Source: an uncultured Gemmatimonadales bacterium
Lineage (GTDB): Bacteria; Gemmatimonadota; Gemmatimonadetes; Longimicrobiales; RSA9
Direction: 5' to 3'
Assembly (NCBI GenBank): GCA_963741945.1
Contig: CAVUKA010000004.1
Location: 160,001-224,000 of the forward strand
DNA: 64,000 nucleotides
The notes under the pieces were generated by a model. It ran no database searches and had not been told where the DNA came from. It saw only the letters and a list, made by a program, of their open reading frames with translations. The position numbers were made by a program, and so were the translations under genes. Shown here piece by piece: positions 28,904 through 38,128 of the stretch (positions are counted from its first letter, which is position 1; every line of letters starts with the position of its first letter).

Positions 28904-30700
28904 CTAGTGGTCCTGCCTCACCGTCGTGATCCCCGGCAGGCCCGGGAGCACCAGCCCCGTGCCCACACCGTAGCCGCCCGGGAGGTCGATCGGAAGTCGC
29001 CCCGTTATGGGCGCCGCTCCCGACAGCGCCGCCGCCGCGGCCTCCTGGCTCGCCGCTTCCCTGTCCCACGCCAGCAGGTACGTCCCGGCGTGCGGGAGCT
29101 GGCGCAGCAGGTACGGGTCCCCGAACGAGACCACCACGGCGCCCGCGCCGGCAAGCTCGTCGGCCAGTGCTCCGACCGGATCCGGTAGTCCCAGTCCGCC
29201 CTTCCCCGGCACCGCACGGACGAAGCTGGTGAAAAGGACCACGTCCGCACCGCCCGACAGACGGCGCACCCTGGTCAGATCTCCCGCGTCGGAGGTTCGC
29301 GAGAGGCGCATCGTCAGCACACGGGCACCGCGGCCGGCGAGCGCCCGCTCCAGCTCCAGCCCGGTGTCCCTGCGCACGCGGTCGTCGTAGACAACGAGCA
29401 GGACGGCCCGGCCTTTCAGGGACAACGGCAGGGAGCCGGCCTCCCCACGCACCAGCGTCATCGAGCGCTCCGTCACATGCCGGCTCCACGCCTGGCGAGC
29501 TGCGCTCCCCTCGTCGGGCAGGAGCGCGTCCGGATCCACCAGTCGTCGCTCCCTGAGTCCCGCGGCCGCTTTCGCGCGCAGGACGCGCCGCACGGACTCA
29601 TCGAGCCTCTCCTCCGACAGCCGCCCCCTTCGCACCGCTCGTACCACCGCGTCGATGGCCCTGGCCTCGCCCCGCGGCATGAGCAGCAGGTCCGCCCCTG
29701 CCTGAATTGCTGCGACCGCCACTGCGCCCGTCGAGCCCTGGCGCGTCACCGCGTCCATGTACAGCGCATCCGTGACCACCAGTCCGCCGAACCCCAGTTC
29801 CCCACGCAGCACCCCGGTGATGATCGGCCGTGAGAGCGTGGCCGGCCTCAGCCCACCCGCCGGATCGAGCGCTGGCACCGCCAGGTGTGCCGTCATTACA
29901 CCGGCGACGCCCGCCGCGATCGCCGCACGGAACGGCGCAAGCTCCACACGGTCCAGCCGCGCTCGGTCCGCCCGCAGCACCGGAAGCGCGATGTGGGAGT
30001 CAAGCTCCGTGTCCCCGTGTCCCGGGAAGTGCTTCGCCACGGTCAGGAGCCCGGCCGCCCGCGCACCCTCGATGAACGCAGCCACGCGCTCCGACACCGC
30101 CGCCGGGTCGCTCCCGTACGAGCGCGTGTTGATTACCGGATTGTCGGGATTCACGTTCACGTCCGCCACCGGCGCGAACGCCACGTGCACGCCCGCAGCC
30201 CGGGCCTCCACTCCTGTGATGAACCCCGCCTCCCGCGCGTACGCGGCCGGCCCGGCCGCGGCCAGCGCCATGTTGATCGGAAGGACCGTCGCTCCCTTCA
30301 GTCTCGTCCCCGCCCCCCATTCCAGGTCCGCTGCGACCAGGAGTGGAATGCGAGACGCCTGCTGAAGCTCGTTCAGCCACGCGGCCGTCTCGGCCGCGGC
30401 CCCGTTCCCCACGATCATCGCCCCCACACCCTCTTCGCGGACCAGCCGCAGCGCCCGCTCCCTTTCCGCACTGCCTTCGGCAGGCCGGCCGCCTTCGAGC
30501 CACGCCACCACCACCTGTGCCGCCTTCTCTCGCAGCGTCAGCGCCGAGGCGATCGAATCGACCCACGCATCGTCTTCCGGCGACAGGGACTCCCCGATCA
30601 CGGTCCCCCGGTGGTACGCCGCCGGTATCGACCGCGACGGCGTACCGGCAAGCTGCGCGAATATCATGACCAGGGAGAACACAATTTCGGCCAGAATCAT
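28904..30700 (-). CDS. GH3 beta-N-acetylhexosaminidase (NagZ-like, with C-terminal domain)
   Basis: FAPVADV, RSYG, KHFPGHGDTELDSH and VTDAL motifs. Confidence 0.88.
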   Translation of the reverse strand: MILAEIVFSLVMIFAQLAGTPSRSIPAAYHRGTVIGESLSPEDDAWVDSIASALTLREKAAQVVVAWLEGGRPAEGSAERERALRLVREEGVGAMIVGNGAAAETAAWLNELQQASRIPLLVAADLEWGAGTRLKGATVLPINMALAAAGPAAYAREAGFITGVEARAAGVHVAFAPVADVNVNPDNPVINTRSYGSDPAAVSERVAAFIEGARAAGLLTVAKHFPGHGDTELDSHIALPVLRADRARLDRVELAPFRAAIAAGVAGVMTAHLAVPALDPAGGLRPATLSRPIITGVLRGELGFGGLVVTDALYMDAVTRQGSTGAVAVAAIQAGADLLLMPRGEARAIDAVVRAVRRGRLSEERLDESVRRVLRAKAAAGLRERRLVDPDALLPDEGSAARQAWSRHVTERSMTLVRGEAGSLPLSLKGRAVLLVVYDDRVRRDTGLELERALAGRGARVLTMRLSRTSDAGDLTRVRRLSGGADVVLFTSFVRAVPGKGGLGLPDPVGALADELAGAGAVVVSFGDPYLLRQLPHAGTYLLAWDREAASQEAAAAALSGAAPITGRLPIDLPGGYGVGTGLVLPGLPGITTVRQDH

Positions 30701-30815
30701 CGGCCCATTTCACTTCCGGGATGGATGGAGGCGACACGATCAGAGCCTGCCTCCGTCAATTGTTGCTAACGCATTGCCCGCCCGCAAGTTCCTGTTTCCG
30801 CCGACGCCCGGTCAG

Positions 30816-30864
30816 TCAATGATGATTGAATCCTCTTGACACTCCGCTCTCCATAGTCCACTTT
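30816..30864 (+). promoter_or_regulatory. Putative sigma70 promoter with upstream palindromic operator
   Basis: Perfect TTGACA at 30836-30841, 17 nt spacer, weak -10 CACTTT (30859-30864); inverted repeat TCAAT-gatg-ATTGA at 30816-30829. Confidence 0.5.
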
Positions 30865-30907
30865 TGCTCGCGACCTCCCAGACAGCCACTCATCGCCCGC
30901 TGGCCGG

Positions 30908-31777
30908 GTGAAGCGGCGGCTGCCCGCCGGCTTGCACCCGTCCGGTGGTGTTCCTTTACGGAGTACGGACACGAGCGTGGACGGCACGACCACGAGGCCG
31001 ATCGGCACCTACGACGTGGCCCGCGAGGCGGAGGCCCTTATCCGCTGCCTTTCGGGCGTCCTGCACGCTTCCGTCCACGCGGGCCTCGGCGGGATCGACG
31101 CGATCCACGTCACCGCAATGGACGCCGAGGACGCCCGCGGCATGCCCGCCCGCATTCGCTCCGCTCTCCTCGCCGGCCTCGCGACCCCCGTCCTCCCCGC
31201 CCGGATCCACGTCCGGACGGCCGAAGCTGGCGACCCCGTGGACACCACCCTCGGCGCACCCACCCCACAGCCCCGGGCGACCCCTCACACCGGCCGACCG
31301 CTGCGCCTGCTCGGTTCGCCCCCGGCGGAGCACGCCCACGAGCCGATCCACCAGCGGGATGCCGATCCCGGCAAGGTCGCTCAGGAAGACCAGCGCAGGG
31401 AACCGACCTACACCGGCACCCCTCACCTCGTCGCCGTGGACCTCGATCGCCCCGGCGACGGACGCGTGCTCTGTCGCGTCTCTGTCGCCTTCGACGCACA
31501 CGTCCACCGCGCCGAGGCCGCCGCCATCGACCTCCCCGGGGCCGCCGCTCACGCTGCCGCCCAGGCCACCGTCGGCGCTCTCGTCGATGCCGGCCTCACC
31601 GGCCTCGAGCTCGGCGGCCTCCGGGAAGTCGAGATCGCCGGACGCGACTACGTCCTCGTCGCCCTGCGACGCACGGACACATGCATCCGACACCGCTCCG
31701 GGAGCGCTCCCGTCCTCGACGCCCCCGAGCGCGCCGCCGCCCGCGCCACCGTGGCCGCGGCCAACGATATCCTGTAA
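30908..31777 (+). CDS. Conserved hypothetical cytoplasmic protein upstream of the peptide/HD-GYP cassette
   Basis: Two domains with a Pro-rich linker: N-terminal IDAIHV...RIRSALLA and C-terminal RAAARATVAAAN, loosely like the LeuA regulatory-domain tail; start uncertain. Confidence 0.65.
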   Translation: MKRRLPAGLHPSGGVPLRSTDTSVDGTTTRPIGTYDVAREAEALIRCLSGVLHASVHAGLGGIDAIHVTAMDAEDARGMPARIRSALLAGLATPVLPARIHVRTAEAGDPVDTTLGAPTPQPRATPHTGRPLRLLGSPPAEHAHEPIHQRDADPGKVAQEDQRREPTYTGTPHLVAVDLDRPGDGRVLCRVSVAFDAHVHRAEAAAIDLPGAAAHAAAQATVGALVDAGLTGLELGGLREVEIAGRDYVLVALRRTDTCIRHRSGSAPVLDAPERAAARATVAAANDIL

Positions 31778-31986
31778 CCGCCGCCACGATGGCGCTGAAC
31801 GAAAACCGGACCTCGGTACACACGGCCCACGGGCCTGAGAGAACATGGCAAGGAGATAATCAGGACTAACGGAGCCCCCCGCCGGCGAAAACCAGTCAAG
31901 GTCTCAGCGGAGCCTGCAGTACCAGCGGAGCGTTCGCGGCCAATTAGCGGAATACGGCCGACGCCACGCGAAAGGAGGTGACGCTT

Positions 31987-32058
31987 ATGACCGAGATGAT
32001 GTTTCGGATGATCGGGGCTATTGTCGCGCTGTTTACCGCGGGATGGGTTAGCCTCTAG
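31987..32058 (+). CDS. 23-aa hydrophobic peptide MTEMMFRMIGAIVALFTAGWVSL, absent from the ORF track
   Basis: Strong SD AAAGGAGGTG at 31971-31980, 6 nt before ATG; tandem stops TAG-TAA; 27 nt upstream of the HD-GYP gene. Confidence 0.75.
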   Translation: MTEMMFRMIGAIVALFTAGWVSL

Positions 32059-32085
32059 TAAGTGGTGGGGGCTCCGCTTTCTTTT

Positions 32086-33438
32086 ATGCGTCAGCCTAAG
32101 GCTTGGTACCTGTACATTGCAGCTCTCGCTGCAGGCGGCGCTGTGCTGATTGCATTGCTCCCATGGGATGCTATATGGGCTTTGCAACGCGCAGATGTGG
32201 CTGGCATTCTCATTTTTGTCGCCCTCGCCGTGCTGTCACAAGCCCTCGCTGTGGATGCGGCCGTGGGTGGATCCCGGTCAGCAACGGTATCGGTTTCGTA
32301 TCTGCCGCTATTGGCGATGGCAATAATTTTCCCATCGCCGGCGGTGGCATGCGCCGCCGGGGCAATGGCCGCGATTACAGAGCTTTTCAAGGGGGAAGCT
32401 CGGCGCTGGCACACAGGTGTCTTCAACATATCGCAGGCCGTACTTTCATACGGACTCGGTGCTGTCGTGTTCAGGATCGTGTTGACGGCACTGGCCGGTC
32501 CGGAAGCACGCGGCCTTTCCGCGGGGCTCGCCGTAACATTCTTCCCCTTCTATTCTTTGGTTCTTGTCTTATTTGTTTTGAACATGTCGTTCGTAAGCGT
32601 AGCAATATCTATCCGGGAACAGAAGCCCCTTTGGGGTGTGATGCACGAGTTCAGCGGACGTGGCGGGGGAAATCTTTTTTATGATATCCTGGCCAGTCCC
32701 ATGGCCTTGGTGGCCGCCTACCTCTATGCAAATCTGCAGGCCGCAGGATTAGTTGCCGTTGTCTTGCCTCTCCTTCTCATTCGGAACACCTATCTCTCGA
32801 ATAGCCAATTACAGAAAGCAAACCGCGATTTATTGAATGTGCTTATAAAGGCCATCGAGACACGTGACCCTTACACGTCGGGTCACTCCCTGCGTGTGTC
32901 CACTTTGGCGCGAATGATTGCCGAGGACTTTGGGCTTCGCTCAAATGTCGTCGCTAGGATTGAGACGGCCGCATTGCTGCACGACATCGGCAAGATAGAC
33001 GCTCTTTTTGCTCAGATCATCTCTAAAGAGGGATCTCTGACAGAGCAAGAGCGAAATATTATTCGTACACACGCCACTAAAGGCGCGGATCTCCTCGCGA
33101 GTCTCACGTCCCTTGAAAAGGACATCATAGTTGGCGTCCGCCACCATCATGAGCGATTCGATGGTACTGGTTATCCCGATGGTTTGGCGGGGAAGGAAAT
33201 TCCCCTTCCTGCACGCATTATCATGATTTGCGACTCGTTGGATGCAATGTTGTCTGATCGGCCTTACCGGAATGCGCTACCATTACCTGAGGTGCGAGCG
33301 GAACTGCAGCGTTGCGGTGGCACTCAGTTCGATCCAGATCTTGTACGCACGATCCTGGAGCGCAACACACTTGAACGTGCGGAGTTGTTGGTCGATCGCT
33401 CTGGAGCCCGGAGCCCGATGCGAGCCGTGGTCGGATAG
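32086..33438 (+). CDS. Membrane-bound HD-GYP cyclic di-nucleotide phosphodiesterase
   Basis: About 7 TM segments, then RDPYTSGHS, LLHDIGKI, HHHERFDGTGYPDGL, DSLDAM..RPYR and QFDP; metal ligands intact. Confidence 0.9.
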   Translation: MRQPKAWYLYIAALAAGGAVLIALLPWDAIWALQRADVAGILIFVALAVLSQALAVDAAVGGSRSATVSVSYLPLLAMAIIFPSPAVACAAGAMAAITELFKGEARRWHTGVFNISQAVLSYGLGAVVFRIVLTALAGPEARGLSAGLAVTFFPFYSLVLVLFVLNMSFVSVAISIREQKPLWGVMHEFSGRGGGNLFYDILASPMALVAAYLYANLQAAGLVAVVLPLLLIRNTYLSNSQLQKANRDLLNVLIKAIETRDPYTSGHSLRVSTLARMIAEDFGLRSNVVARIETAALLHDIGKIDALFAQIISKEGSLTEQERNIIRTHATKGADLLASLTSLEKDIIVGVRHHHERFDGTGYPDGLAGKEIPLPARIIMICDSLDAMLSDRPYRNALPLPEVRAELQRCGGTQFDPDLVRTILERNTLERAELLVDRSGARSPMRAVVG

Positions 33439-33559
33439 CCTCCACGCCGCCGTTCATTGCTGGACTCCGAAGCGGCTTTCTACTTTGTCCAGCCGGTCCG
33501 TCCCAACGTGCCATTGTGTTACCTGCACGGTTCAGCAGATTTGAACAGCTACTTTGTAC

Positions 33560-33583
33560 AAAACGCCTTCTTGCGAGAAGGCG
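33560..33583 (-). terminator. Hairpin with T-tract on the minus strand (possible intrinsic terminator)
   Basis: Perfect 8-bp stem CGCCTTCT (33564-33571)/AGAAGGCG (33576-33583) preceded by AAAA on the + strand. Confidence 0.4.
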
Positions 33584-33687
33584 GAAGGATGCGGCACCGA
33601 CTTTAGTCTCCCGCATTCTCGCGATTGAGCCGGTTCGCTTACACACGCAGTTTTCGAATACGCCTGCCGATGATCGGGGAGTCGCCT

Positions 33688-36600
33688 ATGCCACGGTCGC
33701 TTCCATGCGCCTATCTTCTGGGCCCCATTTCCTCCGTTCAAGTTGAACCGCAGCGCGATTTGGCCGCGAAGGAGTGGGCCCTGCTCGTCCTCATTATTGT
33801 AGATGGGCCTCAGCACCGGCAGGCAGCCGCCGATACATTATGGACCGCCTCGCCGACATCGGCCCGCCATAGCCTAAGCCAAGCCCTATATCAGATCCGG
33901 AGAAAGCTAGGACCCGAAGTTCTGATCGGAGATTTCAACGTCGTCGGGCGTGGGGGTATCAGGTCAGACATTGAGATGTTCGATGAAATGATCGAAAGAG
34001 GCGACTGGGTTTCGGCGGCACGCCTGTATCGTGGCGATCTTGCCTTCGGGCTCGATCCTGCCCTTCCGGATGCCTTCCTTGATTGGTTGGCCATTGCGCG
34101 GGAGACTTATCGCCGACGTGCGCGTGAGGTTTTGGACCACCTCCTAGCAGGGGGTGAAGCGGAAGAGGCTTCACGTTTGGCCTCAGTTCTCCTGGACTAT
34201 GATCCGGCCGATCCCGTCGCCATAGCGGCCAGCCAGGTTCACTCCGACCCTAGGCCGAACCTCACTACCAGCCTTGGCTCTGACTTCCCGCCGAAGCTCT
34301 TCGTTCGGTTCGTCGGCAGGAGTTCAGAACTTGAGTTTCTCGAGCGAGCTGCAAATGCGTGCGCAGGGGGATCTGTAAGAGGTGTAGCCATCACGGGGGA
34401 AGCCGGTGTTGGAAAGACCGCGTTGCTGACTCGATTCCTTCGGCTTCAGGCCGTGCGAGGCTCAAAGGTTCTGACTGCGCGAGCGAGTGATGTAGAAAAC
34501 AACTTGCCATTCGGCGTTGTAACGCAATGGGCCCGCGATGCCATTGATCGCGATCCGCGTCGCGAAGCTAGCAGCGCCTCTCGCTGCGCGGATCACGAAG
34601 ACTACCTTGTTTCATTGCTGAGCGGCGAGGTGGGCGGTTCTTCTCCGGTTGAGGACTGGGACCAGTTCCGGTTTCTTGAGGCACTCCGAAGGCTCTTTCT
34701 CCAGACATCTCGGGATCGCCTCCTTATCCTCAGCGTAGATGACATGCAGTTCGCGGATGCAGCGTCGATCGGTTTCCTCCGGTACGTAGCACGCATTGGC
34801 ACTGACGCTCGCATCCTTTTTGTTGCAACCGTTAGGACTCAATTGGGGGCTTCTAACGTCCCGTTTTCCGACACGTTGCCGCTACAGCGGCTTGATCTCC
34901 TCCCCTTCTCGCTCGACGAAGTTGCAGAATTTATCGGGCGTCTCGCTGACGCCCGAGACCGGCAACGTTTCGACCCTTCGCAGGTGTTTTCGAAGACAGG
35001 TGGAAACCCTCTGTTGCTGACATCGCTAATGAGAGATCGGGGAAACGAAACTCTCCCAACTCATCCTTCACGCGGGTACGGCTTCTTCACAGAGCAAATC
35101 CACTCATTAAGCGGTAACGCTGAGAAGCTGCTGGCGGCAGCCTCAGTCGCCGGAGAACCTATCTCAATGGCCAACGCTGCGCTGATTGCCGGCATTCCCG
35201 AGAACGAGATGGGTGAGGCGGCGTTGGAGCTTGAATCATCTGGGCTGTTGCTACGGGACCAAAGAGGTGTCCGCCCTCGCCACGGGCTGGTCGCAGACGC
35301 GGCGTTGGAGGAGCTTTCCTCTTTTGACCGACGCTCTCTATACGGGCGTGCCGCAAGCATCTACTCACGGTTGCAGTTGTCCCCCGCAGTGTTGGCAGTC
35401 CGCCATGATATCGCCGGCGATCGCGGCTCGGCATTCTCTGCCGCATTGAGGGCGGCAGCGGCGAGCTCTGAGCTACATGCGTACCGTGAACACGAGTTCT
35501 TTCTGAAGCTTGCCTTGGACAGCGCGCCAAGCCAAGAAGAAGCTGCCCAGGTCAAGGTGGACTTAGCAGAACTCATGGTTCGTTCGGATAGAAGGCGAGA
35601 AGCTCACGACCTTCTCGACGGCATCACAACTGCCGACATTTCAGACAAAACTGCCGCGAAGTCGGAGTCTCTGAAGCTCTTGCTGGCGCTTTCGGCCGCT
35701 CGCGATGAATCTATTCTGGACCAGTCTCTGCCCTTAATCGAAGAGCTGCAGGGCCGAGTAACGCCCACACGACTTGCTGAGTTGTACGTAGAAGTGGGAG
35801 CGGTAGCTCACGATTACTCCCGCACCGGTATGGCCGTTGCGGCCGCACAAGCCACTTTGGGCGTGTGTCGGATGCATCCCGGTTCGGCTGTGCTTTCGAG
35901 AATCGCCGCGCGAGCAGCCACAATTCTGGGCACGTACGTTGGATATGAAGCAGGGCTCGAAGCGATTAGTGAATGGATGCGGCACGCTGAAGACGCACCC
36001 GAAAACAAGGCAGCGCTTCTGATTGCTAGAGGATCCATTCTCATGGGCGCTGGGCGATTGACAGAGGCGGTCGAAGCATTTGCCGAAGCGATGGAATTCG
36101 TGGAGCAGTTCGGACTGTACGATCTTCTTTTTTCTGTACACAACAACATCGGGGTTTGCTACCTAGAACGCGGGATGTACTCGCATGCCCGTGGTCATTT
36201 TGATCGCGCCTTGGCGTTGGCCAGAGACGGAATGGTTGCGAGCCATGCGGGCATCGCGGTAGATAACTATGCCGGTTTCCTTTACGAGGTTGGAGACCGA
36301 GAAGGAGCAATCAAATATTGCAGATCCGCGCTCGCAACCGAACAGATCACCTCCGTTCGCAGTCTATTGTCCCAGCATTCCATCATTGGTCTATGTTCGC
36401 TCGAGATAGGGCGGGTTTCTGCGGCACAGGCAGCCCGACGGGAAATTGCGCTGACATTGACAAACCAGGAATATCAGGGGAGCGATATCTCTTACATCGA
36501 GATATTTTTGGCGCGCATGTTGATGCTGGAGGGACAGGCGGATCGGGCGAAGGCGCGTCTGGCCACGGCCATCCGCGCCTATGCGCCGCGCGAGGAGCTC

Positions 36601-36768
36601 GCGTCCGCGCGGATGGAGCTCGAGCTGGCGCGCATCGAGCTCCGTGAGGATCCCGCGGCCGCGGGCGAGCGGGCGGAAGCGGTGCTCGCGCGGCTGGCTG
36701 GCTCGGGCGCCGTCCCGCTCATCGAGATGGCCGAGAGCCTGGTCCATCGGGCGCTCACCCGCGTCTAG
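33688..36768 (+). CDS. BTAD/SARP-like AAA ATPase-TPR transcriptional regulator (STAND-like)
   Basis: SLSQALYQIRRKLG and LYRGDLA..FLDWL (BTAD); FVGRSSEL; Walker A GEAGVGKT; Walker B LSVDDMQFAD; TGGNPL; C-terminal TPRs (HNNIGVCY). Confidence 0.85.
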   Translation: MPRSLPCAYLLGPISSVQVEPQRDLAAKEWALLVLIIVDGPQHRQAAADTLWTASPTSARHSLSQALYQIRRKLGPEVLIGDFNVVGRGGIRSDIEMFDEMIERGDWVSAARLYRGDLAFGLDPALPDAFLDWLAIARETYRRRAREVLDHLLAGGEAEEASRLASVLLDYDPADPVAIAASQVHSDPRPNLTTSLGSDFPPKLFVRFVGRSSELEFLERAANACAGGSVRGVAITGEAGVGKTALLTRFLRLQAVRGSKVLTARASDVENNLPFGVVTQWARDAIDRDPRREASSASRCADHEDYLVSLLSGEVGGSSPVEDWDQFRFLEALRRLFLQTSRDRLLILSVDDMQFADAASIGFLRYVARIGTDARILFVATVRTQLGASNVPFSDTLPLQRLDLLPFSLDEVAEFIGRLADARDRQRFDPSQVFSKTGGNPLLLTSLMRDRGNETLPTHPSRGYGFFTEQIHSLSGNAEKLLAAASVAGEPISMANAALIAGIPENEMGEAALELESSGLLLRDQRGVRPRHGLVADAALEELSSFDRRSLYGRAASIYSRLQLSPAVLAVRHDIAGDRGSAFSAALRAAAASSELHAYREHEFFLKLALDSAPSQEEAAQVKVDLAELMVRSDRRREAHDLLDGITTADISDKTAAKSESLKLLLALSAARDESILDQSLPLIEELQGRVTPTRLAELYVEVGAVAHDYSRTGMAVAAAQATLGVCRMHPGSAVLSRIAARAATILGTYVGYEAGLEAISEWMRHAEDAPENKAALLIARGSILMGAGRLTEAVEAFAEAMEFVEQFGLYDLLFSVHNNIGVCYLERGMYSHARGHFDRALALARDGMVASHAGIAVDNYAGFLYEVGDREGAIKYCRSALATEQITSVRSLLSQHSIIGLCSLEIGRVSAAQAARREIALTLTNQEYQGSDISYIEIFLARMLMLEGQADRAKARLATAIRAYAPREELASARMELELARIELREDPAAAGERAEAVLARLAGSGAVPLIEMAESLVHRALTRV

Positions 36769-37523
36769 ACCAGCCCCTCTCGCCGGAGCCACTCCTCGAC
36801 GATCCACTCCCATCCGAGATGATCCCGGACGAACAATGGCCGATAGCCAATGAGGCGGTTCATGGAATTGCTCATGGTGAAGCCATCCGGATACCCGAAG
36901 CGACCCGCTACGCGGTTGATGTTGGAGCGCGTGTTCTGGAGGTGCATGGACGCGTGCAGCAGGCGCGCGAACTGGAGCCAGTGCGACGGGACGGGCAGTT
37001 CGCGGTCACGGAAGAACCGGCCGAGTGTCCGACGTGACTGACAGAGCTCATCCGCCATCTGCTCGATGCTGTGCACCTGCGGCGCACGGGAGAAGATGGT
37101 GTAGACGCGGGCGCGGACGTCGGCCGCCGCGAGCAGTCCCACCAGGTCCAGGTAATCGGCCACTGCGAGCGCCAGCGATTGGGGAGGCGTGGCCAGGAGC
37201 GTGCGGAGCGCCGTCATTGTTCCGCGTCCGGCCGTCGGCAGCACGCCTCGCGGTCGAAGCTCGGGAACGTGCCGCAGGACGGGCACCACCGGCGCAATGT
37301 CCTCGGGCTCTGGCAGGACCACGAACAGGGGAAGCTCGCGCGGCTTCTCCATCACCCAGTCCAGCTCCGACCACACGGCCCCGACCGCAGCCATGAACCA
37401 TACCACCGCGGCGCCTGGCTGGGGCCCCGCCGCAGGCCCGAACGTGGGCTCGACCCGCTCGTAGGTGAAGTAGGGCGGCCGGAAGAGGTGCAAACCTGTC
37501 GGGAGCTTCGGCTGGACGGGCAT
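36765..37523 (-). CDS. AraC-type HTH domain protein
   Basis: MADELCQSRRTLGR..PSHWLQFARLL..VAGRFGYPDGFTMS double HTH; GGAGG SD. Confidence 0.8.
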   Translation of the reverse strand: MPVQPKLPTGLHLFRPPYFTYERVEPTFGPAAGPQPGAAVVWFMAAVGAVWSELDWVMEKPRELPLFVVLPEPEDIAPVVPVLRHVPELRPRGVLPTAGRGTMTALRTLLATPPQSLALAVADYLDLVGLLAAADVRARVYTIFSRAPQVHSIEQMADELCQSRRTLGRFFRDRELPVPSHWLQFARLLHASMHLQNTRSNINRVAGRFGYPDGFTMSNSMNRLIGYRPLFVRDHLGWEWIVEEWLRREGLV

Positions 37524-37711
37524 GGAATCCTCCTGAATGGGGTCCGGGTGCTGTAAGCAACCTCGCCCGCCGGTATCATCACAGCGTCAAAGGCCAGCAG
37601 CCGCGCGCCCGAACGCCTCCGTCACACCGCCTTCACACCGCTCGCAGTCAATGGAGTGGAACGGATCTTTCCACATCCATTTCCCCGGGCGAAACGTATG
37701 GCGGAGGTACG

Positions 37712-38128
37712 ATGGGTGGCTCGAGCGGGACGGAGGTCGGGGGGCATGGGATCCCCCTCAATGGCGATAGGCGGGGGCTGGATCTGGCCCCGCGAGAGCA
37801 GCGGCTGTTGGACCTCATCGAGGAGCTCCTGCGTCGGCAGAGGCGGCGACCGGACATGGTGGTCCGGCCGTGGTGGACGCCGACATCGGGTGTGGACGAC
37901 GTTTCGCGGGTGGGATTCGTGCTGGAGTACTGCCCCGGGGGCGTGGTCAGCGTCGAACTGGCCGTGCGCGGCGATCGTGTAACGGTGGACGGGCCGGGCG
38001 GCGCATCGGAGGTTCCACTTCGCCTGTCGGAGTGCTGGGAGATTGACGGAGTCGACGCCGGCTCACCGGAGATCCTGGCCAATCACCTGCTACGGCTGGC
38101 TGACAGGGCGCTCGAACGAGACGTCTGA
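37712..38128 (+). CDS. Hypothetical protein
   Basis: 138 aa ORF with plausible composition; start uncertain. Confidence 0.5.
   Translation: MGGSSGTEVGGHGIPLNGDRRGLDLAPREQRLLDLIEELLRRQRRRPDMVVRPWWTPTSGVDDVSRVGFVLEYCPGGVVSVELAVRGDRVTVDGPGGASEVPLRLSECWEIDGVDAGSPEILANHLLRLADRALERDV

What the first reader, a model, noticed from the sequence alone, without database searches (positions are those of the whole stretch)
30816..33438. Candidate peptide-sensing c-di-GMP system: hypothetical protein + unannotated 23-aa peptide + membrane HD-GYP receptor
Seen: a tiny ORF missed by the ORF track (31987-32058, MTEMMFRMIGAIVALFTAGWVSL) has a strong SD (AAAGGAGGTG) and a double stop. It lies 27 nt upstream of a multi-TM protein with an intact HD-GYP domain and downstream of a hypothetical gene that has a TTGACA promoter. 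Established: HD-GYP domains hydrolyse cyclic di-nucleotides, and agr and comQXPA loci place a small peptide gene next to its membrane receptor. Inference: the peptide is a ligand or membrane-embedded modulator of the HD-GYP sensor, giving peptide signalling with a second-messenger output rather than a kinase output. I have an unverified recollection of a similar three-gene order in other phyla, but know of no characterised example.
Basis: partly seen in the sequence, partly recalled or inferred. Interest (0 to 1): 0.9.

Follow-up and report, generated by a model that had tools for sequence, protein, structure and literature searches.

The report
Micro-gene in folded leader before HD-GYP
The 23-codon reading frame is a real, conserved small gene that sits inside a previously undescribed folded RNA leader and probably gates, and perhaps partners, a membrane enzyme that degrades the bacterial signal c-di-GMP.

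Summary
ORF 31987-32058 has a strong SD, a TAG-TAA double stop and lies 27 nt before a multi-TM HD-GYP gene. A comparable SD-led hydrophobic micro-ORF precedes the orthologous HD-GYP gene in 78 of 79 usable Gemmatimonadota loci, against 0 of 510 control ORFs. It shows coding signatures, and the hypothetical gene / micro-ORF / HD-GYP order is conserved in 69 loci.

A covarying long-range helix (median 27 bp) pairs a C-run about 115 nt upstream of the ORF with the stretch from the ORF's stop codon through the HD-GYP SD and ATG. The leader also holds 2-5 AGCGRA repeats and a covarying hairpin. It matches no Rfam family and is single-copy in this genome.

Best reading: translating the micro-ORF melts the helix and so licenses HD-GYP translation. 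The peptide evolves in step with the sensor's TM domain and is probably a membrane partner, with only weak complex-model support (0.57 against 0.00 for controls). A purely cis-acting leader peptide is the main rival. An agr/com-like secreted signal is not supported.

Earlier notes of this scan describe the same or a closely related element on other genomes. Four of six full-text searches addressed it and listed no paper on it.

The parts
30908..31777 (+). Conserved uncharacterised gene ('up289' family). It has an N-terminal alpha-beta-beta-alpha-beta domain, a disordered linker and a C-terminal 2x(beta-beta-beta-alpha) domain.
   Evidence: A homolog ends 150-450 nt upstream of the HD-GYP start, on the same strand, in 69 loci. 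It has no Pfam or NCBIfam match. Of 354 homologs, none of the 120 listed has a Pfam domain, and those that carry a name are called 'hypothetical protein', apart from one uninformative MGnify label. The AF2 model has pLDDT 79.9. Foldseek matches the C-terminal domain to the LeuA/citramalate synthase regulatory domain (3fig_B E 2.6e-5; 3f6h_B TM 0.69).
31824..31835 (+). GC-rich hairpin (GGCCCACGGGCC) between the upstream gene and the leader.
   Evidence: Similar GC hairpins lie at this position in many loci. Its role was not tested.
31852..31884 (+). 5' arm of the long-range helix P1 (core GGAGCCCCCC at 31871-31880).
   Evidence: It pairs with 32063-32092 in the MFE fold of 31800-32100. The core covaries across 72 loci.
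31906..31951 (+). Three AGCGGA repeats (31906-11, 31924-29, 31946-51). The last lies in the loop of hairpin P2.
   Evidence: AGCGRA occurs 2-5 times (mean 3.19) per 120-nt leader in 72 of 72 loci. The background is 0.077 per 120 nt. These are invariant columns in alignments A2 and A4.
31938..31959 (+). Hairpin P2 (GGCC 31938-41 pairs with GGCC 31956-59).
   Evidence: All 5 pairs show changes on both sides across 72 loci, and 93.9% of cells are paired.
31971..31980 (+). Shine-Dalgarno sequence AAAGGAGGTG of the micro-ORF.
   Evidence: A comparable strong SD-like core (mostly GGAGG, in a few loci GGGGG or GGGAG) with a 4-12 nt spacer was the detection criterion, and it is seen in the listed loci.
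31987..32058 (+). Micro-ORF of 23 codons (MTEMMFRMIGAIVALFTAGWVSL) with stop TAG, followed by TAA at 32059-61.
   Evidence: It is present in 78 of 79 loci. Among 77 peptides, 69 are unique. Codon-position entropy is 1.44/0.84/1.68, and the other two frames hold stops in 76 and 45 of 77 loci.
32063..32092 (+). 3' arm of P1. It covers the G-run 32067-32075 (presumed SD of the HD-GYP gene) and the HD-GYP start codon at 32086.
   Evidence: The arm starts -3 to +6 nt from the micro-ORF stop in 72 of 72 loci and covers the ATG in 59 of 72.
32086..33438 (+). Membrane HD-GYP phosphodiesterase with a MASE9-like multi-TM N-terminal domain and an HD_5 domain.
33625..36768 (+). AAA_16 (STAND-type) ATPase with TPR repeats. 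It is a conserved neighbour.
   Evidence: Pfam AAA_16 at 8e-19 plus TPR families. A relative lies downstream in 49 of 83 loci, on either strand.
36765..37523 (-). AraC-type (HTH_18) regulator. It is a conserved neighbour.
   Evidence: Pfam HTH_18 at 5.7e-10. A relative lies downstream in 51 of 83 loci, mostly 3.3-3.6 kb away on the - strand.

Best explanation
This is a conserved bicistronic module of Gemmatimonadota. A structured mRNA leader encloses a translated micro-ORF for a hydrophobic peptide of 15-31 residues, usually ending in Trp (23 residues here). The leader is coupled to a MASE9-type membrane HD-GYP c-di-GMP phosphodiesterase.

Shown:
- The ORF is coding and conserved.
- A covarying long-range helix P1 pairs a C-rich segment far upstream with the whole stretch from the micro-ORF stop codon through the HD-GYP SD-like G-run and start codon.

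Inferred:
- In the closed state the HD-GYP initiation region is masked.
- A ribosome finishing the strongly SD-led micro-ORF unwinds the 3' arm, so HD-GYP is made only together with, and in lower amount than, the peptide.
- The AGCGRA repeats and hairpin P2 just 5' of the micro-ORF SD are a docking platform for an unidentified factor (protein or ligand) that sets how often the micro-ORF is translated.
- The released peptide inserts into the membrane and packs against the MASE9 domain as an accessory helix or modulator of the sensor.
For: ORF conservation: 78 of 79 loci have the ORF, against 0 of 510 control ORFs and 0 of 10 paralogs.

Coding signatures:
- Codon position 2 is the least variable and position 3 the most.
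- Stops occur in the other two frames in 76 and 45 of 77 loci.
- 91 close pairs show 393 synonymous against 367 non-synonymous codon differences.

Helices P1 and P2:
- 93.5% of cells are paired against 82.8% in shuffles (0 of 500 shuffles reach it).
- 142 cells show a change on both sides against 42.6 in shuffles (0 of 500).
- Slid controls give 31-60% paired.
- G-U wobbles far outnumber the unpaired 'other' cells, which fits RNA on the + strand.

Per-locus duplex:
- Mean dG is -41 kcal/mol and mean z is -4.2. z is below -2 in 67 of 72 loci and the median is 27 bp.
- The 3' arm starts -3 to +6 nt from the stop in 72 of 72 loci and covers the ATG in 59 of 72.
- P1 forms in the MFE fold of the window's own leader.

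Specificity:
- The leader is single-copy in this genome.
- A covariance model finds it in 60 of 151 sampled genomes of the phylum, 58 of them with one copy.
- Of 20 loci checked, 15 have the HD-GYP homolog. In 4 the contig ends first, and 1 is a likely false hit.

Peptide as a partner:
- Peptide identity tracks TM-domain identity. Across bins the peptide runs 0.30/0.42/0.51/0.78/0.95/0.99 and the TM domain 0.31/0.40/0.55/0.67/0.81/0.92.
- Polar and small residues fall on one helical face. This is my reading of the alignment.
- The authors who defined MASE9 propose that ligand binding occurs within the membrane (10.1101/2021.11.05.467447, passages read).
- Complex prediction gave weak support: score 0.57 (runs 0.59, 0.55, 0.57) against 0.00 for the best of 3 controls. 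Partner pLDDT was at least 66 and the runs agreed in at least 63% of contacts. The tool's counts: the mark was reached by 58 of 80 solved complexes and 2 of 110 mismatched pairs. A score of 0.60 or less was seen in only 7 of those solved complexes and in both mismatches.
Against: - There is no expression or translation data.
- The whole-leader MFE is not more stable than shuffles (z -0.57).
- The peptide's mean hydropathy (0.8-1.9, main clade about 1.1) is below the usual threshold for an autonomous TM helix.
- Some family members are only 15-16 residues long, which is short for a membrane span.
- Peptide/HD-GYP column covariation gave nothing beyond clade structure. 28 of the top 50 pairs fall in the TM region, against 203 of 320 variable columns.
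- The complex model's support is weak by the tool's own calibration. It also used a 36-residue frame with 13 non-native N-terminal residues.
- The G-run lies 10-17 nt before the ATG, which is long for a canonical SD.
- Conservation of the peptide sequence fits a cis-acting nascent peptide equally well.
Confidence: 0.55

Rival explanations
1. The ORF is a purely cis-acting regulatory leader peptide. Its nascent chain, usually ending in Trp just before the stop, modulates termination or stalling at the base of P1 in response to a small molecule or tRNA supply. That sets how long the HD-GYP initiation region stays open. The released peptide has no function of its own.
For: - The stop codon is locked to the base of P1 in 72 of 72 loci.
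- C-terminal Trp is the most widely kept residue. It is present in 54 of 77 loci and in most of the distant family members seen.
- Lengths of 15-31 aa would lie wholly inside the ribosome exit tunnel (recalled general knowledge).
- Members of 15-16 aa are short for a TM span.
- An earlier scan note (e1-1368339) reached the same comparison with termination-stage arrest peptides.
Against: - Conservation runs along the whole peptide with a hydrophobic and amphipathic pattern. It is not confined to a C-terminal arrest motif.
- The window's own clade does not end in Trp (L, I or V in 3 of its 4 members).
- A ribosome stalled at the stop would partly cover the G-run 6-17 nt downstream. This is inference.
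- No hairpin lies between the stop and the ATG. Mean z is 0.15, and 1 of 77 loci has z below -2.
- Peptide identity tracks the TM domain, and the complex model gave weak support.
Confidence: 0.27
2. The peptide is a secreted or diffusible signal, as in agr or comQXPA, that is sensed by the HD-GYP receptor, giving peptide quorum sensing with a c-di-GMP output.
For: A small peptide gene lies next to a membrane sensor, and the pair is conserved.
Against: - No processing or export gene is in the conserved cluster. The neighbours are the up289 family without any Pfam match, an AAA_16/TPR protein and an AraC-type regulator.
- The peptide is 15-31 hydrophobic residues with no separable leader or cleavage motif.
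- Tight translational coupling through P1 suits co-production of a subunit or cis control, not a population signal.
Confidence: 0.05
3. The element is an RNA-only switch, either a riboswitch or a protein-binding leader such as a CsrA target. The open frame would then be a by-product of RNA constraints.
For: - The structure covaries strongly.
- AGCGRA repeats are enriched about 40-fold.
- Several repeats contain GGA, one of them in a hairpin loop near the SD, and the genome encodes CsrA at 63.8 bits.
Against: - The frame stays open in 78 of 79 loci, with 69 different peptides among 77 and a start codon at SD distance.
- The other two frames hold stops in 76 and 45 of 77 loci, and the codon-position pattern is that of coding sequence.
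- Column-pair scanning found no covarying helix inside the ORF.
- The invariant core is AGCG-A, and many copies read GAA rather than GGA.
- A factor-binding leader and a translated ORF can also coexist. That combination is part of the best explanation.
Confidence: 0.06
4. The peptide is a type I toxin-like hydrophobic peptide whose mRNA is held in check by long-range pairing.
For: The peptide is small and hydrophobic and lies within a highly structured mRNA that has a long-range 5'-3' helix.
Against: - The helix masks the downstream gene's initiation region, not that of the micro-ORF.
- The module is single-copy and strictly linked to one HD-GYP family.
- No antisense partner was looked for.
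Confidence: 0.03

Closest known systems
Translational coupling or unmasking through a small upstream ORF before a membrane sensor, for example cbrX-cbrA of Pseudomonas putida (PMC6591292, abstract read)
   Same: A small ORF lies directly upstream of a multi-TM sensor gene, and production of the sensor depends on translating the small ORF.
   Different: Here the output is an HD-GYP phosphodiesterase, not a histidine kinase. The coupling element is a covarying long-range helix of median 27 bp that encloses the whole ORF. The leader carries AGCGRA repeats. No sequence relation was sought.
Small membrane proteins that modulate membrane sensors or transporters (MgrB-PhoQ, SafA-PhoQ, KdpF-KdpABC; recalled, no paper read here)
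   Same: A hydrophobic peptide of a few dozen residues or fewer is proposed to pack against the TM domain of a larger membrane protein.
   Different: None of those partners is a c-di-GMP enzyme. They are not embedded in a leader that masks the partner's start codon. Binding here has only a weak model-based indication.
Leader-peptide switches in which a ribosome on a short ORF opens a structure masking the next gene (ermC/cat type), and termination-stage arrest peptides (TnaC type). Both are recalled and were also named in earlier scan notes.
   Same: A short SD-led ORF ends at the foot of a structure that hides the downstream initiation region. Trp is conserved at or near the C-terminus in most members.
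   Different: The masking partner lies about 115 nt upstream of the ORF rather than in a local hairpin. No inducer is known, and the peptide is hydrophobic along its whole length.
MASE9-HD-GYP proteins (Galperin and Chou preprint 10.1101/2021.11.05.467447, passages read)
   Same: The architecture is the same: a multi-TM N-terminal sensor domain fused to HD-GYP. The authors propose that ligand binding occurs within the membrane.
   Different: The passages returned for the terms MASE9, MASE10 and Gemmatimon mention no associated small ORF or leader, and 'Gemmatimon' occurs 0 times in that text. The window's protein scores 23.3 bits against the 24.3-bit cut-off.

Membership tests
HD-GYP (Pfam HD_5, PF13487) | Profile score above the curated cut-off | tested here: met
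   122.7 bits against a 27.2-bit cut-off, E 1.7e-35.
HD-GYP (Pfam HD_5, PF13487) | HD, HHExxDGxGYP metal- and c-di-GMP-binding motifs | tested here: met
   HD is at 299, HHHE at 353 and GYP at 362 of the 450-aa form. The same columns are invariant in 21 orthologs.
HD-GYP (Pfam HD_5, PF13487) | c-di-GMP phosphodiesterase activity | not testable with these tools
   This needs an enzyme assay.
MASE9 (PF20972) | Profile score above the curated cut-off over the N-terminal TM region | tested here: inconclusive
   The window's protein scores 23.3 bits against a 24.3-bit cut-off. Most of the 120 listed orthologs carry PF20972 in precomputed annotation.
agr / comQXPA-type peptide quorum sensing | A dedicated processing or export enzyme encoded beside the precursor peptide | tested here: not met
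   Pfam and NCBIfam scans of the conserved neighbours show an unassigned protein, AAA_16/TPR and AraC HTH_18 only.
agr / comQXPA-type peptide quorum sensing | A precursor with a leader part that is removed, and a histidine-kinase receptor | tested here: not met
   The peptides are 15-31 residues with no separable leader. The receptor carries HD-GYP, not a kinase domain.
Leader ORF with ribosome-mediated unmasking / translational coupling | An SD-led short ORF upstream of the regulated gene | tested here: met
   78 of 79 loci.
Leader ORF with ribosome-mediated unmasking / translational coupling | The downstream SD and start codon are sequestered in a conserved structure, and the ORF ends within ribosome reach of it | tested here: met
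   Covariation. The 3' arm starts -3 to +6 nt from the stop in 72 of 72 loci and covers the ATG in 59 of 72.
Leader ORF with ribosome-mediated unmasking / translational coupling | Downstream expression depends on translation of the ORF | not testable with these tools
   This needs reporter fusions with start, stop and helix mutants.
Small membrane-protein modulators of sensors | The peptide is membrane-inserted and binds the sensor's TM domain | tested here: inconclusive
   Complex prediction gave weak support: 0.57 against 0.00 for the best of 3 controls. The covariation test was uninformative. Hydropathy is moderate.
Any Rfam family | A covariance-model match | tested here: not met
   No match at E up to 1 in 30500-37800, on either strand.

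The most novel reading that the evidence does not exclude
The leader is a new class of factor-responsive RNA switch. Its AGCGRA-repeat platform binds an unidentified ligand or protein, possibly the always-adjacent up289 protein with its LeuA-regulatory-like ligand-binding fold. Through a micro-ORF and a ~27-bp long-range helix, the switch licenses synthesis of a membrane HD-GYP sensor together with its own micropeptide subunit. That would be the first micropeptide-c-di-GMP-phosphodiesterase complex and a three-layer control of one second-messenger enzyme: RNA, translation and subunit.
Probability: 0.25. Interest if true: 0.85.

Novelty: new variant of a known kind. Interest (0 to 1): 0.7.

Why it matters
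Membrane HD-GYP enzymes with MASE-type sensor domains are common, but what they sense and how they are controlled is largely unknown. This locus offers a concrete, testable control circuit conserved across a phylum:
- an unannotated micropeptide gene;
- a new structured RNA that is in neither Rfam nor the papers listed by the four topic-relevant full-text searches (listings only; a fifth, sought the RNA motif in structured-RNA surveys and returned only generic surveys);
- a long-range helix that ties enzyme synthesis to peptide synthesis.

If the peptide binds the MASE9 domain, it would be the first small-protein subunit of a c-di-GMP enzyme. It would also give a handle on intramembrane sensing by MASE domains. 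The case further shows that standard annotation misses a gene conserved in dozens of genera.

Tried and rejected
- A local attenuator or terminator hairpin between the peptide stop and the HD-GYP ATG was rejected. Folding 77 loci gave mean z 0.15, and 1 of 77 had z below -2. The terminator-like hits at 32050-32081 are explained by the 3' arm of P1.
- The 'recently acquired low-GC island' reading was rejected. The HD-GYP gene is lower in GC than the adjacent up289 gene in all 69 loci compared (mean 0.567 against 0.670).
- A DNA-level inverted repeat (invertible element) was rejected. G-U wobbles on the + strand are frequent, orientation is constant, and no recombinase is in the cluster.
- Peptide/HD-GYP co-variation by MI with APC over 77 pairs was dominated by the clade split and was uninformative.
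- A scan of all column pairs for further helices found only P1 and P2. The AGCG:TGTT hits are G-U-rich and were judged spurious.
- A possible pairing of gUCGAc just 5' of the SD with uUCGAu in codons 6-7 was seen by eye. It was not recovered by the scan and was dropped.
- No other copy of the leader is in this genome by nhmmer. The leader is absent from 10 paralogous HD-GYP loci.
- RNA-seq evidence: no RNA holder was listed.
- The PDB sequence search with the up289 profile gave 0 hits.
- The NCBIfam and Pfam scans of the peptide gave 0 families.
- The whole-leader MFE z-score was not significant.
- Complex prediction failed twice because the machine was busy and ran on the third, identical request.
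- timed out and was rerun with 20 shuffles.
Full report
1. THE OBSERVATION

- ATG 31987 to TAG 32056-58, followed by TAA 32059-61, encodes MTEMMFRMIGAIVALFTAGWVSL.
- AAAGGAGGTG lies at 31971-31980, 6 nt upstream of the ATG.
- ATG 32086 of the next gene lies 27 nt after the TAG.

The next gene encodes a membrane HD-GYP protein.
- Its orthologs are 444-450 aa, so ATG 32086 rather than GTG 32062 is the likely start.
- It matches HD_5 at 1.7e-35.
- HD is at residue 299, HHHE at 353 and GYP at 362, and about six hydrophobic segments lie in residues 7-237.
- The N-terminal region scores 23.3 bits on MASE9, just under the 24.3-bit cut-off. Most listed orthologs carry PF20972 in precomputed annotation.

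The upstream gene 30908-31777 has no Pfam or NCBIfam match. TTGACA at 30836-41 exists, but the promoter scan finds no + strand promoter-like site there.

2. CONSERVATION OF THE MICRO-ORF

Orthologous HD-GYP genes came from two sources: 40 related genomes, and a scan of one genome per species that found 457 relatives, of which the best 80 were fetched.

The locus set was reduced as follows.
- Of the 93 loci examined, I dropped 9 duplicates and 1 locus without a start codon. That left 83 distinct loci.
- Four more had under 120 nt of upstream sequence, which left 79.
- An SD-led ORF of 20-27 codons ending 22-49 nt before the HD-GYP ATG was found in 77 of the 79.
- One frame, in L102, was corrected.
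- L087 also starts the ORF but is then interrupted by a run of N. That makes 78 of 79.
- L033 is the only locus without the ORF.
- Two of the 79 loci (L014, L018) come from genomes flagged as unpublished. No claim depends on them.

Nearly all records are Gemmatimonadota MAGs (Longimicrobiales, Gemmatimonadales). A few bins carry other labels: Actinomycetales, Edaphobacter, Phycisphaerales and Anaerolineae, all of which have the ORF, and Chloroflexi (L033), which lacks it.

Controls for the detector:
- 74 of 76 HD-GYP starts with at least 200 nt upstream were positive.
- 0 of 510 other ORFs of at least 250 aa in the same loci were positive.
- 0 of 10 paralogous HD-GYP genes were positive.

3. 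IS THE ORF CODING?

- 69 of the 77 peptides are different.
- Entropy by codon position is 1.44/0.84/1.68, and GC by position is 0.56/0.41/0.66. This is the pattern of a hydrophobic coding frame.
- The other two frames contain stops in 76 and 45 of 77 loci.
- Among 91 pairs whose HD-GYP proteins are at least 60% identical, codons differ synonymously 393 times and non-synonymously 367 times. I infer that this is far from the roughly 1:3 ratio expected without constraint.
- Peptide identity follows that of the sensor's TM domain through all divergence bins.

A main-clade example is MFSSLFDFFGSLLSLLGNGVVGW (L062). Conserved positions are:
- Gly at the fourth position from the C-terminus in 74 of 77;
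- Asp or Glu at position 7 in 63 of 77;
- C-terminal Trp in 54 of 77.

The window's own clade has Arg at the acidic position and does not end in Trp in 3 of its 4 members.

Right-aligned upstream sequences and a 72-locus alignment (A2) show several conserved elements.
- A C-run lies 100-175 nt before the micro-ORF. It is the reverse complement of a conserved G-run between the peptide stop and the HD-GYP ATG.
- The window has GGAGCCCCCC at 31871-80 and GGGGGCTCC at 32067-75. Most loci have CCCCCTCGGTC and GACCGAGGGGG.
- AGCGRA repeats number 2-5 in every leader, mean 3.19 per 120 nt, against a background of 0.077.
- A hairpin P2 carries AGCGGA in its loop.

RNAalifold recovers the long-range helix P1 and P2. 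Counting these 12 pairs gives:

| Measure | Observed | Shuffled | Shuffles reaching observed |
|---|---|---|---|
| Cells paired | 93.5% | 82.8% | 0 of 500 |
| Cells with a change on both sides | 142 | 42.6 | 0 of 500 |
| Covariation score | 0.484 | 0.268 | 0 of 500 |

Slid controls give 31-60% paired. G-U wobbles are frequent, so the pairing is RNA on the + strand.

Locus by locus, the 5' region and the stretch from the peptide stop to ATG+6 form a duplex.
- The median is 27 bp (range 14-40).
- Mean dG is -41 kcal/mol and mean z is -4.2 against 20 shuffles. z is below -2 in 67 of 72 loci.
- The 3' arm begins -3 to +6 nt from the stop codon in 72 of 72 loci and runs past the A of the ATG in 59 of 72.

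In the window's own MFE fold, 31852-31884 pairs with 32063-32092. The total energy is not better than shuffles (z -0.57). No local hairpin lies between stop and ATG. No further covarying helix was found. Rfam gives nothing at E up to 1.

5. DISTRIBUTION AND SPECIFICITY

The leader is single-copy in this genome (nhmmer). A covariance model of its 5' part (R1) hits 60 of 151 sampled genomes of the phylum, in 38 of 83 genera. Of these, 58 have one copy and 2 have two.

I checked 20 loci.
- 15 have the HD-GYP homolog next to the hit.
- In 4 the contig ends first.
- 1 weak hit has neither a leader by nhmmer nor an HD-GYP gene.
- A small ORF was recognised in 16.

In these more distant families the peptides are 15-31 residues, hydrophobic, and end in Trp (or Trp-Gly) in 13 of the 14 complete ORFs.

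6. NEIGHBOURS

- A homolog of the upstream gene ends 150-450 nt before the HD-GYP start in 69 loci. The three-gene order is therefore conserved.
- The family has 354 members at E up to 1e-5. None of the 120 listed has a Pfam domain, and those that carry a name are called 'hypothetical protein', apart from one uninformative MGnify label.
- The AF2 model has mean pLDDT 79.9. It shows an alpha-beta-beta-alpha-beta N-domain, a disordered linker and a 2x(beta-beta-beta-alpha) C-domain.
- The C-domain resembles the amino-acid-binding regulatory domain of LeuA/citramalate synthase (3fig_B E 2.6e-5; 3f6h_B TM 0.69, rmsd 3.3 A). Tandem-dsRBD matches are weak and geometrically poor.
- An AAA_16/TPR protein recurs downstream in 49 of 83 loci and an AraC-type regulator in 51 of 83.

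7. MECHANISM

Shown:
- a translated-looking, conserved micro-ORF;
- a covarying helix that hides the HD-GYP SD-like G-run and start codon;
- a stop codon fixed at the foot of that helix.

Inferred:
- Ribosomes finishing the micro-ORF melt the 3' arm and allow initiation or re-initiation at the HD-GYP ATG. The enzyme is then made only with, and less abundantly than, the peptide.
- The AGCGRA/P2 platform next to the micro-ORF SD would be the regulated step. The factor is unknown. The genome has CsrA, but the invariant core AGCG-A does not match a GGA-centred site well.

Whether the peptide also acts in trans is open.
- For a trans role: conservation along the whole peptide in step with the TM domain, a one-sided small/polar face (my reading), the published proposal of intramembrane ligand binding by MASE9, and weak support from the complex model. 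The model scored 0.57 against 0.00 for the best of 3 controls. The tool warns that scores of 0.60 or less were seen in only 7 of 80 solved complexes and in both mismatches that passed. Partner pLDDT was at least 66 and the runs agreed in at least 63% of contacts. A 36-aa frame with 13 non-native residues was used.
- Against a trans role: moderate hydropathy, family members of 15-16 residues, and uninformative covariation.
- The main rival is a purely cis-acting, termination-stage leader peptide.
- The agr/com-like reading lacks its defining parts.

8. COMPARISON AND NOVELTY

The logic resembles two known kinds of system: small-ORF translational coupling before a membrane sensor (cbrX-cbrA; PMC6591292, abstract read), and small membrane-protein modulators (recalled).

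Neither the RNA nor the peptide belongs to a described family. Six full-text searches were run.
- One search found the MASE9 paper.
- Searches listed no paper on a small ORF or leader with an HD-GYP gene. I saw listings only.
- sought the RNA motif among structured-RNA surveys and returned only generic surveys.

Earlier notes of this scan describe the same or closely related elements on other genomes: e1-4061232, e1-927261, e1-1368339, e1-1374621 and e1-1497782. I saw them after my own analysis, and they agree with it.

Supplementary files of the MASE9 paper (its Figure S5) were not available. They could bear on MASE9 membership.

Noticed in passing
window 31800-36500; 69 related loci: The HD-GYP gene keeps a low GC content whatever its host. 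It is 0.547 here against 0.738 for the adjacent upstream gene, and the means are 0.567 against 0.670 in 69 loci, lower in every one of them. In the window GC3 is 0.57 for HD-GYP and 0.61 for the AAA_16/TPR gene, against 0.86 for the upstream gene. This may reflect rare-codon-limited expression or frequent exchange of the cassette. It is unexplained.
   Followed up: partly
window 31906-31951; leaders of 72 loci: AGCGRA repeats number 2-5 per leader, an enrichment of about 40-fold. The commonest spacings are 8, 10, 18 and 23 nt. The binding partner is unknown.
   Followed up: partly
window 30908-31777: The uncharacterised upstream protein has a C-terminal fold like the leucine/isoleucine-binding regulatory domain of LeuA/citramalate synthase. 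Its N-terminal alpha-beta-beta-alpha-beta domain resembles ring-building motifs. It could be a ligand-binding regulator of the module.
   Followed up: partly
L091 and L097: Two tandem copies of the upstream-gene family precede the leader in these two loci.
   Followed up: no
L033 (bin labelled Chloroflexi): This is the only ortholog locus without the leader and micro-ORF. The upstream-gene homolog lies 613 nt away, and unrelated sequence fills the gap.
   Followed up: partly
L087: This is the locus with the fullest synteny to the window (GH3, upstream gene, AAA_16/TPR, AraC, BNR-repeat protein). A run of N interrupts the end of its micro-ORF and the N-terminal part of its HD-GYP gene.
   Followed up: partly
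G000:C1:479765-479917 (-): The genome encodes a CsrA homolog at 63.8 bits.
   Followed up: no
window 36500-36768: The last 270 nt or so of the AAA_16/TPR gene return to about 72-75% GC, unlike the rest of the gene. The gene's stop codon overlaps the end of the convergent AraC-type gene by 4 nt.
   Followed up: no
G127 (L121, L122) and G078 (L119): G127 holds two copies of the leader plus micro-ORF with different peptides. One copy is followed by HD-GYP and the other is cut by a contig end. The second hit in G078 looks false.
   Followed up: partly
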